34,663 bases of DNA from a virus, in the UHGV virus genome UHGV-0173140, one strand, 5' to 3'. Below the pieces are notes generated by a model. It had not been told where the DNA came from and searched no databases. It saw nothing but the letters and a program-made list of their open reading frames with translations. A program made the translations under genes and the position numbers. Positions 16,463-17,576 of the stretch are shown here, piece by piece (positions within the stretch are counted from its first letter, which is position 1; every line of letters starts with the position of its first letter).

Positions 16463-16656
16463 AACTATCAGAAGCACAAGATTATCAGCGTAGAATTTCA
16501 GACCTCATTAAACAGTTAAACTGTGCTATACATGAAGCCTCAATCGTCGGAATTAATGTTGAACTTGATTTATACGAAGAACAAAAACTAAGTGGTGTAA
16601 ACACTGTTGTTCTTGACGGAAAAGTTACTATCAAACCACAGGACATTGAACTATGA
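16459..16656 (+). CDS. hypothetical protein
   Basis: Track ORF; ATGA-coupled to rdgC. Confidence 0.45.
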
Positions 16657-17576
16657 ACTTCTTTAAAAACGCAATCATTTATCGTCTGACTAACCCGATG
16701 GCATTAATGGCCCAGTTACCAACGCTGGAAGACAGCCTGTGTGCGTTTCAATTCAATCCATGTGGTTCACAGGATATGGCGCGTACTGGATGGATTCCGG
16801 CAACTGAACAACATCAGACGCTGGTTCACCAGGCTAATGGGCAATATCTGCTGACCATCCAGAAACAGGAAAAGATTATTCCGGGTCCGGTCATTAAACA
16901 GCATCTGAACGCGCGAATCGCCAAACTGGAAGCTGAACAGGCGCGTAAGCTGAAGAAAACAGAGAAAGACGCGCTGAAAGACGAAGTGTTGCACAGTCTG
17001 TTACCACGGGCGTTCGTTAAAAACAATCGTACACAGTTGTGGATTGATATTACTAACGGGTTGATCGTGGTTGATGCGTCCAGTGCTAAACAGGCTGAAG
17101 ATGCGTTAGCGCTGTTGCGTAAATCCCTGGGTAGTCTACCTGTAGTCCCACTGACAACTGAAAACCCTGTTGAACTGACAACAACGGAGTGGGTACGTTC
17201 AGGAAACGCGCCAGCAGGTTTTACAATGGGTGACGCTGCTGAACTGAAAGCGATCCTGACTGACGGCGGTGTTGCACGTGTTAAAAAACAGGATTTAACC
17301 AGTGACGAAATAGCCACTCATATTGAAGCAGGAAAAGTCGTTACAAAACTGGCTCTGGACTGGCAGCAGCGGGTAACGTTTACGCTAACTGACAGTATGA
17401 CGTTAAACCGTGTGAAATTCTGCGACGGGTTGCTCGACCAGAACGACGATATTGACCTTGAAGACAGTCTGGCACGATTCGACGCTGATTTTGTACTAAT
17501 GACAGGTGAACTTGCATCGCTGATCAAACAACTTATCACTGCTTTGGGTGGGGAAGCGAAACGTACAAGTTACTGA
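16653..17576 (+). CDS. rdgC: recombination-associated protein RdgC homolog
   Basis: 307 aa; from memory, [57 protein letters not shown] and [13 protein letters not shown] closely match enterobacterial RdgC. Confidence 0.8.

What the first reader, a model, noticed from the sequence alone, without database searches (positions are those of the whole stretch)
16653..17576. Phage-encoded RdgC homolog close to the enterobacterial protein
The 307-aa product carries long stretches that match bacterial RdgC as I remember it, which points to recent capture from an enterobacterial host. RdgC binds DNA and modulates RecA; a phage copy could bias recombination or protect replication intermediates. It sits in a small-gene cassette between terS and terL, not in the replication module.
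Basis: partly seen in the sequence, partly recalled or inferred. Interest (0 to 1): 0.6.

Follow-up and report, generated by a model that had tools for sequence, protein, structure and literature searches.

The report
Old phage copy of RdgC
This is a real, intact phage copy of the bacterial DNA-ring protein RdgC (a brake on the RecA recombinase), but it is an old, already annotated accessory gene of 9NA-like phages and not a recent theft from the host.

Summary
The ORF at 16653..17576 (+, 307 aa) exists as described and is a full-length RdgC (Pfam PF04381, E 5e-116; E. coli RdgC structure 2OWL, E 5e-128). It is 66% identical to E. coli RdgC. All ten residues shown by mutagenesis to matter for DNA loading and ring closure are conserved. 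The context is also right: it lies in a + strand cassette of small genes between terL and terS, both on the - strand.

The "recent capture" reading is not supported:
- Synonymous sites are saturated against every host gene tested.
- GC3 has shifted to the phage's composition.
- The protein is about equally distant (62-67%) from all chromosomal Enterobacterales RdgCs.
- No genome among 185,579 species representatives holds a copy above 66%.
- It belongs to a 100%-bootstrap clade of phage RdgCs (79-95% identical) that keeps the same position in E. coli, Salmonella and Klebsiella 9NA-like phages and evolves under purifying selection (Ka/Ks 0.10-0.18).

Orthologs are already annotated in GenBank, and RdgC homologs occur in at least 512 phage records, including P1 HrdC. 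The likely function is an early-expressed DNA-encircling ring that restrains host RecA. This is inferred; I found no experiment on any phage RdgC. The finding is ordinary.

The parts
16653..17576 (+). rdgC: full-length RdgC homolog, 307 aa. This is the finding.
   Evidence: ORF; PF04381 E 5e-116; NCBIfam NF001462 414.9 bits, above its cutoff of 330; 2OWL E 5e-128; 10 of 10 mutagenesis-defined residues conserved; phrog_724 E 3e-127.
15975..16011 (+). Promoter-like element that probably drives the four-gene unit ending in rdgC. It is one copy of the phage's recurrent 22-bp motif (AATAATTCTTGACGGTTTGCAC), with -35 TTGACG, a 17-nt spacer and -10 TAGACT.
   Evidence: Motif found 10 times in the window against 0 expected. 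The -35/-10 pair is listed. Aligned copies are each followed by an RBS and a start codon. Function is inferred, not shown.
16044..16310 (+). First gene of the unit (88 aa from the ATG after the RBS), function unknown.
   Evidence: ORF, start inferred. No Pfam or PHROG family.
16307..16462 (+). Second gene (51 aa), function unknown. Its start overlaps the upstream stop (ATGA).
   Evidence: The same protein is present in Bas82 and in locus L093.
16459..16656 (+). 65-aa gene whose stop overlaps the rdgC start (ATGA). It is a frequent but not obligatory neighbour of rdgC in this phage clade.
   Evidence: 100% identical in AVIO78A, 37% in Klebsiella phage KP13-27 (E 2e-14), 29% in Sergei. Directly upstream of rdgC in 7 of 12 clade loci. 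Not homologous to P1 Uhr.
17589..17625 (+). Next copy of the promoter motif, 13 nt after the rdgC stop, starting the following unit. No intrinsic terminator lies in between.
12206..13969 (-). terL (587 aa), left boundary of the cassette, transcribed divergently from it.
   Evidence: phrog_2 terminase large subunit; 99.7% identical to AVIO78A TerL.
18631..19266 (-). terS (211 aa), right boundary of the cassette, convergent with it.
   Evidence: phrog_51 terminase small subunit; 100% identical to AVIO78A TerS.

Best explanation
The gene encodes a functional phage ortholog of RdgC. By homology it forms a ring-shaped dimer that loads onto DNA through its basic finger domain and binds DNA without sequence specificity. 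It has been a long-standing accessory gene of the 9NA-like (Nonanavirus/Sashavirus) siphophages and their Klebsiella relatives, not a fresh host capture. It is the last gene of a tightly packed four-gene unit behind one of the phage's recurrent sigma-70-type promoters, in the hypervariable cassette between terL and terS. The most likely job, inferred and not shown, is to occupy DNA early in infection. That would restrain host RecA (RecFOR-mediated loading, strand exchange, LexA cleavage) on phage replication intermediates and on the host chromosome, limiting branched recombination intermediates and SOS signalling while the phage replicates with its own primase-helicase.
For: Family identity and integrity:
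- Full-length matches to PF04381, NF001462 and 2OWL.
- 66% identity to E. coli RdgC.
- Fingertip R97/K98/K100/K101, gate R118/F120 and horseshoe Q212/E218/H222/K227 are all conserved. These residues were shown to be needed for circular-DNA loading, stable binding and in vivo function (PMC2965237).
- The finger segment is the most conserved part (97% identity over residues 91-120).

Selection:
- Ka/Ks is 0.10-0.18 among phage copies over dS of 0.17-1.4.
- 147 of 302 aligned columns are conserved identically in both the phage and the chromosomal groups.

Age and vertical history:
- The phage clade has BS 100.
- The terL-cassette-rdgC-terS order is the same in E. coli, Salmonella and Klebsiella phages.
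- RdgC identity falls in the same rank order as TerL and TerS.

Expression anatomy:
- Promoter motif and ATGA overlaps.

RdgC biochemistry:
- Non-specific DNA binding, inhibition of RecA strand exchange, and countering RecFOR loading (PMC2965237).
- Inhibition of RecA ATPase and LexA cleavage, as summarised in PMC11077077.
Against: - No phage RdgC has been characterised experimentally in the papers I could search.
- P1 hrdC scored non-essential in a CRISPRi screen (PMC10695390).
- The gene is missing from Sasha and 9NA, and the megablast survey listed it in only 10 phage records, with 536P12 not among them. It is therefore dispensable.
- 15 positions are fixed differently between the phage clade and chromosomal RdgCs, and the N-terminal 60 residues are only 37-50% identical to E. 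coli. Altered partners or properties are possible.
- Early timing rests only on a promoter consensus.
- In Neisseria, RdgC promotes a RecA-dependent process (PMC2965237), so the direction of the effect is not guaranteed.
- The AlphaFold model was too poor to confirm the fold independently.
Confidence: 0.65

Rival explanations
1. One reading: the gene was captured recently from an enterobacterial host chromosome.
For: The protein belongs to the Enterobacterales sequence type. That whole group separates from a Vibrio phage and from P. aeruginosa RdgC with BS 97. It shares identical runs of up to 18 aa with E. coli RdgC. The best-scoring NCBIfam models are RdgC equivalogs.
Against: - dS is at least 2.2 or saturated against all four host genes tested, and nucleotide identity is 61-65% over aligned codons.
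- The longest exact nucleotide match is 26 nt with E. coli and 12-14 nt with the others.
- GC3 has shifted to the phage's composition.
- The protein is about equally distant (62-67%) from all Enterobacterales families.
- No copy above 66% exists in 185,579 species-representative genomes.
- It scores below the cutoff of the best-scoring equivalog model NF001460 (471 against 501).
- The phage clade is monophyletic and syntenic across phages of three host genera.
Confidence: 0.03
2. The ring protein acts mainly on the phage's own DNA or on host defences, independently of RecA. It might coat or protect phage DNA, or have a RexA-like role in exclusion or lifecycle control.
For: Lambda RexA is a structural relative of RdgC and a non-specific DNA binder (PMC11077077). 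Casjens and colleagues suggest that lambdoid RdgC homologs may work like RexA (PMC12315714). The gene sits among small accessory genes in a hypervariable cassette, the kind of place where host-takeover and counter-defence genes are often found (the generalisation is my own knowledge). There are 15 clade-specific fixed substitutions.
Against: No RexB-like partner was identified next to it. All residues needed for canonical RdgC function are retained. Bas82, which carries the gene, is still markedly sensitive to restriction-modification and Old defence systems (PMC11990801), so it gives no broad protection against those.
Confidence: 0.2
3. It is an exonuclease, as many GenBank records and the Pfam family title say.
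For: Only annotation labels: 'Putative exonuclease, RdgC', 'exonuclease' in AVIO78A and PDP46, and phrog_724 'exonuclease recombination-associated'.
Against: The biochemical and structural work describes RdgC as a non-specific DNA-binding ring that inhibits RecA, with no catalytic site reported (PMC2965237; PMC11077077). From my own knowledge, Moore et al. 2003 detected no nuclease activity; I could not retrieve that paper. No nuclease domain was detected in the protein.
Confidence: 0.03
4. It is a neutral passenger gene with no selected function in the phage.
For: It is absent from some close relatives, and P1 hrdC is non-essential.
Against: Ka/Ks of 0.10-0.18 is maintained over synonymous divergence up to 1.4. 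The reading frame is intact in all 23 clade members examined, and the functional residues are invariant.
Confidence: 0.05

Closest known systems
RdgC of 9NA-like phages already in GenBank (vB_EcoS_AVIO78A gp005, PJ16_006, Bas82_0099, Sergei gp07, Solent, FSL SP-062/SP069 'RdgC exonuclease', Klebsiella phage KP13-27 rdgC)
   Same: Orthologs, 80-95% identical in protein. They occupy the same position between terL and terS on the same relative strand, and often have the same 65-aa upstream neighbour.
   Different: The window's copy is 307 aa, not 304-305 aa, because similarity to most relatives ends 13-42 nt before the stop. The downstream 111-aa gene and terminator seen in AVIO78A are replaced by a promoter copy and different small genes.
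E. coli chromosomal RdgC (PDB 2OWL)
   Same: Same length class and a full-length alignment at 66% identity. Fingertip, gate and horseshoe residues are all conserved.
   Different: - It falls outside the chromosomal Enterobacterales cluster.
- 15 positions carry clade-specific fixed substitutions.
- The N-terminal 60 residues have diverged.
- Its composition is that of the phage.
- It sits behind a phage promoter in a small-gene operon, not as a stand-alone chromosomal gene next to mak.
Phage P1 HrdC and lambdoid-prophage RdgC homologs
   Same: RdgC-family genes carried by enterobacterial phages; 57-66% identical to the window's protein.
   Different: P1 hrdC is in a C1-repressed operon with the Dmt methylase. 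In lambdoid prophages the gene sits directly after the lambda-P-like replication gene and near a Dam methylase, and some copies are fused to an FtsK-gamma domain. Here the gene lies outside the replication module, in a different phage type.
Lambda RexA
   Same: A phage-encoded, dimeric, non-specific DNA-binding protein with domains structurally related to RdgC (PMC11077077).
   Different: RexA has no detectable sequence similarity and lacks the closed ring with a finger domain. The window's protein is a bona fide RdgC, not a RexA.
Plasmid PsiB (functional analogy only)
   Same: A RecA inhibitor encoded by a mobile element that dampens SOS on entry into a cell (PMC2965237 introduction).
   Different: PsiB is an unrelated protein that binds free RecA. 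RdgC is thought to act by occupying DNA.

Membership tests
RdgC family (Pfam PF04381 / NCBIfam PRK00321 group) | Full-length match to the family profile above the curated cutoff | tested here: met
   PF04381 scores 387.5 bits against a cutoff of 25, covering profile positions 2-298 of 298. NF001462 scores 414.9 against 330, and NF001464 scores 339.1 against 227.
RdgC family (Pfam PF04381 / NCBIfam PRK00321 group) | Basic fingertip needed to load onto circular DNA (E. coli R97, K98, K100, K101) | tested here: met
   All four are conserved, as R98, K99, K101 and K102. Their role is defined in PMC2965237.
RdgC family (Pfam PF04381 / NCBIfam PRK00321 group) | Gate interface residues R118 and F120 | tested here: met
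   Conserved as R119 and F121, and invariant across the 19 clade members aligned.
RdgC family (Pfam PF04381 / NCBIfam PRK00321 group) | Horseshoe interface residues Q212, E218, H222 and K227 | tested here: met
   Conserved as Q213, E219, H223 and K228.
RdgC family (Pfam PF04381 / NCBIfam PRK00321 group) | Toroidal dimer fold | tested here: inconclusive
   The AlphaFold2 model built from a shallow alignment (19 sequences, all at least 79% identical) had mean pLDDT 51.8 and was not used. The fold is inferred from 66% identity over 302 residues to the solved ring structure 2OWL.
RdgC family (Pfam PF04381 / NCBIfam PRK00321 group) | Non-specific DNA binding and inhibition of RecA activities | not testable with these tools
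   Needs biochemistry or genetics.
NCBIfam equivalog NF001460 (the best-scoring curated RdgC equivalog model) | Score above the curated equivalog cutoff | tested here: not met
   471.2 bits against a cutoff of 501. This agrees with the placement outside the chromosomal cluster in the trees.
Recently transferred host gene | Near-identity at synonymous sites to a donor lineage, and nesting inside that lineage in a tree | tested here: not met
   dS is at least 2.2 or saturated. The protein is about equally distant from all Enterobacterales. The best cellular copy is 66% identical.

The most novel reading that the evidence does not exclude
The phage RdgC is an early counter-measure analogous to plasmid PsiB. 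By ringing DNA and blocking RecA filament function, it would suppress SOS induction and any RecA- or DNA-damage-triggered host responses (resident prophage induction, damage-sensing defence systems) during infection by a virulent phage. The frequently linked 65-aa upstream protein would act as a modulator. The recurrence of RdgC in at least 512 phage records and 1,239 plasmids would then mark a widespread, unstudied class of RecA antagonists carried by mobile elements.
Probability: 0.2. Interest if true: 0.5.

Novelty: already known. Interest (0 to 1): 0.15.

Why it matters
It matters little as a discovery. The gene is correctly identified, but orthologs are already annotated in a dozen deposited phage genomes, and RdgC homologs in phages have been recorded since the P1 genome (HrdC). 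The useful outcome is a correction: high amino-acid similarity in the finger and interface segments reflects functional constraint, not recent transfer. The 'exonuclease' label in many records is a legacy name with no support in the biochemical literature I could read. A real gap remains. No phage RdgC appears to have been tested experimentally, although the family is widespread on phages and plasmids and is kept under purifying selection.

Tried and rejected
1. Structure prediction. The allowed alignment (window plus 18 close homologs) was too shallow (mean pLDDT 51.8), so I ran no fold search and draw nothing from the model.
2. Conserved two-gene module. The 65-aa gene coupled to rdgC is conserved in E. 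coli, Klebsiella and Salmonella phages, but it is directly upstream in only 7 of 12 clade loci and is unrelated to P1 Uhr. I rejected it as an obligatory partner.
3. Resolving the donor lineage. The first NJ tree placed all mobile-element copies as sister to a monophyletic chromosomal clade (BS 85 and 67). After adding 34 viral-contig sequences, the deep backbone collapsed (BS below 50). Only three things are robust: the monophyly of the phage clade, the monophyly of the whole Enterobacterales-type group, and the absence of nesting within the main chromosomal cluster. No ML software was available, so the trees are NJ on Kimura-corrected distances.
4. Terminator after rdgC. None was found.
5. 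Phage recombinase that RdgC might favour. I recognised no SSAP in the window, only a DUF2800/PD-(D/E)XK nuclease, an Rv2179c-like 3'-5' exonuclease and helicases.
6. Literature. Zeng et al. 2019 (9NA-like phage genomics) and Moore et al. 2003 are not in the held library. Other papers pairing 'RdgC' with 'phage' concern the host gene or give annotation only.

Full report
**Observation.** An ATG-initiated ORF of 307 codons occupies exactly 16653..17576 on the + strand. Its product matches the entire RdgC profile (Pfam PF04381, 387.5 bits, E 5.2e-116). It passes the curated cutoffs of the NCBIfam RdgC models NF001462 and NF001464. It aligns end to end with the crystallised E. coli RdgC (2owl_A, E 5.2e-128) and more distantly with the P. 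aeruginosa protein (2owy_A, E 4.3e-67). Global identity to E. coli K-12 RdgC is 200/302 = 66%. The start codon overlaps the stop of the upstream gene (ATGA) and matches the annotated start in relatives.

**Source and context.** The window is a 9NA-like siphophage (Nonanavirus/Sashavirus). Its best relatives are Escherichia phages vB_EcoS_AVIO78A, PJ16, PDP46 and Sashavirus BDX09P1, at about 95% nucleotide identity over about half of a 15-kb test segment. The exact protein is encoded on a 58,033-bp metagenomic scaffold in ENA. terL (12206..13969, -) and terS (18631..19266, -) are confirmed by PHROG terminase families and by 99.7% and 100% identity to the annotated AVIO78A proteins. rdgC lies between them on the opposite strand, in a roughly 4.4-kb run of small + strand genes. 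The replication genes (primase-helicase, SNF2-type helicase, DUF2800/PD-(D/E)XK nuclease, 3'-5' exonuclease, ParB-like protein, methyltransferase) lie at about 24-34 kb. The terS-terL gap is hypervariable. It holds three small genes in Sasha, nine in 9NA (no rdgC), and about fifteen here. rdgC is therefore an accessory gene, not a core one.

**Anatomy of the transcription unit.** A 22-bp motif (AATAATTCTTGACGGNTTACAC: an A/T-rich upstream stretch plus a -35 hexamer) occurs ten times in the window against none expected. Each copy is followed by a -10-like hexamer and, 35-50 nt later, by an RBS and a start codon. The copy at 15975 precedes four genes joined by ATGA overlaps: 16044..16310, 16307..16462, 16459..16656 and rdgC. 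The next copy, at 17589, lies 13 nt after the rdgC stop, with no intrinsic terminator in between. Similarity to most relatives ends 13-42 nt before the rdgC stop. The downstream gene and terminator of AVIO78A are replaced here, so a mosaic junction sits at the 3' end of the gene and explains the three extra C-terminal residues. The 65-aa gene coupled to rdgC is conserved in position in E. coli, Klebsiella and Salmonella phages, but only in 7 of 12 clade loci. It is a frequent neighbour, not an obligatory partner.

**Is it a recent capture? No.** Six lines of evidence agree.
1. Nucleotide identity to rdgC in 5,425 of 5,426 complete E. coli genomes is about 71% over the alignable 76% of the gene, and no match covers 80% or more.
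2. Over aligned codons, dS is 2.2 against E. coli, 3.2 against Raoultella, and saturated against Yersinia and Serratia, while dN is 0.29-0.32. The longest exact nucleotide match to any host gene tested is 26 nt.
3. GC3 is 0.46. That is close to the window's overall GC of 0.44 and far from E. coli rdgC at 0.59.
4. The protein is about equally distant from all chromosomal Enterobacterales RdgCs (61.8-66.6%). Those are 70-91% identical to one another and broadly follow the species tree.
5. A scan of one genome for each of 185,579 species found no copy above 66%.
6. The 120 best hits among 5.8 billion proteins are all 79-95% identical and lie on contigs no longer than about 61 kb, many of them 50-61 kb. 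They form a clade with 100% bootstrap support.

Within this clade the terL-cassette-rdgC-terS arrangement is kept in phages of E. coli, Salmonella and Klebsiella. RdgC identity falls in the same rank order as TerL and TerS, only faster. In the first tree all mobile-element copies were sister to a monophyletic chromosomal clade (BS 85 and 67). With 34 more viral sequences the deep backbone became unresolved. The nearest neighbours of the clade are still other phage copies (weak support, BS 37-44), and it does not nest in the main chromosomal cluster. The enterobacterial affinity is real only in the broad sense: the Enterobacterales-type group as a whole has BS 97 against a Vibrio phage copy.

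**Is it functional? Yes, as far as sequence can tell.** Ka/Ks among phage copies is 0.10-0.18 across dS from 0.17 to 1.4. Briggs et al. 2010 showed by mutagenesis that ten residues matter. Fingertip R97/K98/K100/K101 are needed for loading onto circular DNA. Gate R118/F120 and horseshoe Q212/E218/H222/K227 are needed for stable binding and in vivo function (PMC2965237). All ten are conserved, and the finger segment is the most conserved part of the protein. 147 of 302 aligned columns are identically conserved in both the phage and the chromosomal groups. 15 columns are fixed differently, clustered mainly at E. coli positions 3-87.

**Mechanism.** This rests on inference from the E. coli protein. 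RdgC is a toroidal dimer that binds DNA non-specifically, inhibits RecA strand exchange, and counters RecFOR-mediated RecA loading (PMC2965237). It also reduces RecA ATPase activity and LexA cleavage (summarised in PMC11077077). Placed behind a recurrent sigma-70-type promoter in a cassette of small accessory genes, the phage copy most plausibly restrains host RecA on phage replication intermediates and dampens SOS during infection. I give this 0.65. The main rival (0.2) is a RecA-independent DNA-coating or RexA-like role. It is suggested by the RexA-RdgC structural relationship and by Casjens and colleagues for lambdoid RdgC homologs (PMC11077077, PMC12315714). The "exonuclease" label carried by Pfam, PHROGs and several GenBank records has no support in the literature I could read. 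I found no experimental study of a phage RdgC. P1 hrdC scored non-essential in a CRISPRi screen (PMC10695390). Bas82, which carries the gene, is still sensitive to restriction-modification and Old systems (PMC11990801).

**Novelty.** Orthologs at 80-95% identity are already annotated as RdgC, "recombination-associated protein" or "exonuclease" in AVIO78A, PJ16, Bas82, Sergei, Solent, FSL SP-062, SP069 and Klebsiella phage KP13-27. RdgC homologs are present in 512 of 50,697 phage records, including P1 (HrdC), P7, D6, ICP1 and many vibriophages, and in 1,239 plasmid records. The finding is a correct identification of an already known kind of gene with an unsupported evolutionary reading. I score it as already known, with interest 0.15. 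The residual interest is that phage RdgC function remains untested.

**What did not work.** The AlphaFold model from the permitted shallow alignment was unusable (pLDDT 51.8). Two key papers were not retrievable. Only NJ trees were possible, so the deep branching order and the donor lineage remain open.

Noticed in passing
L034:2989-4131, L072:2989-4137, L071 (Serratia quinivorans, Pectobacterium sp. B1J-3, Brenneria corticis): Second-copy RdgC genes in these genomes are 380-382 aa and carry a C-terminal FtsK-gamma winged-helix domain (PF09397, E 7e-23 and 5e-22). They lie in lambdoid prophage replication regions, directly after a lambda-P-like gene and before Dam methylases. An RdgC-FtsK-gamma fusion was not something I expected.
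   Followed up: partly
window 277(-), 593, 6258, 8480, 15975, 17589, 18077, 25083(-), 26627(-), 31997: A 22-bp promoter-like motif, AATAATTCTTGACGGNTTACAC, occurs 10 times against 0 expected. Each copy is followed by a -10-like hexamer and, 35-50 nt later, by an RBS and a start codon. It probably marks the phage's set of strong host-polymerase promoters.
   Followed up: partly
window 14271..14990 (+): This ORF has a long alanine-rich tandem repeat (AARAAAADAADAARAAA...) in its C-terminal half. It matches phrog_21347 (unknown function) and, weakly, DUF6931. In Sergei, the first gene of the cassette (gp17) is annotated with a 'direct tandem repeat region' at a comparable position; I did not test whether it is homologous.
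   Followed up: no
window 13970..18630, compared with L089 (Sasha) and L090 (9NA): The block between terL and terS, transcribed opposite to both, is hypervariable among close relatives whose TerL is 96-99.7% identical. It holds 3 genes in Sasha, 9 in 9NA and about 15 here. Having terS and terL separated by a reverse-strand accessory cassette is an unusual packaging-gene layout.
   Followed up: partly
L084 (P1), L085 (Flyfo siphovirus), L034, L072: RdgC homologs on temperate enterobacterial phages repeatedly sit next to or near a Dam-type adenine methyltransferase: P1 hrdC-dmt share an operon under a C1-controlled promoter, and lambdoid prophages and the Flyfo phage show the same pairing. In the window the methyltransferase (25497..26177, -) is not adjacent.
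   Followed up: no
window 19842..20612 (+): This 256-aa ORF just beyond terS contains a short tandem peptide repeat (PVARVEA, two full copies plus a partial third) and matches only phrog_25538, of unknown function.
   Followed up: no
window 1075..1458 (+) and 24056..24823 (-): These ORFs hit a 'recombination directionality factor' PHROG (phrog_478, E 2e-45) and a ParB-like protein (phrog_1033, E 2e-59). I did not look for an integrase or repressor in the window. The 9NA group is reported as virulent, which is my own knowledge and was not tested here.
   Followed up: no
L004 ('Vagococcus sp. WN89Y') and L019 ('Pseudomonas lundensis I31'): Two genome records with non-enterobacterial names carry typical Enterobacterales chromosomal RdgC genes. 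L004 clusters with Kosakonia and L019 is nearly identical to Serratia. This suggests contamination or mislabelling of those assemblies.
   Followed up: no
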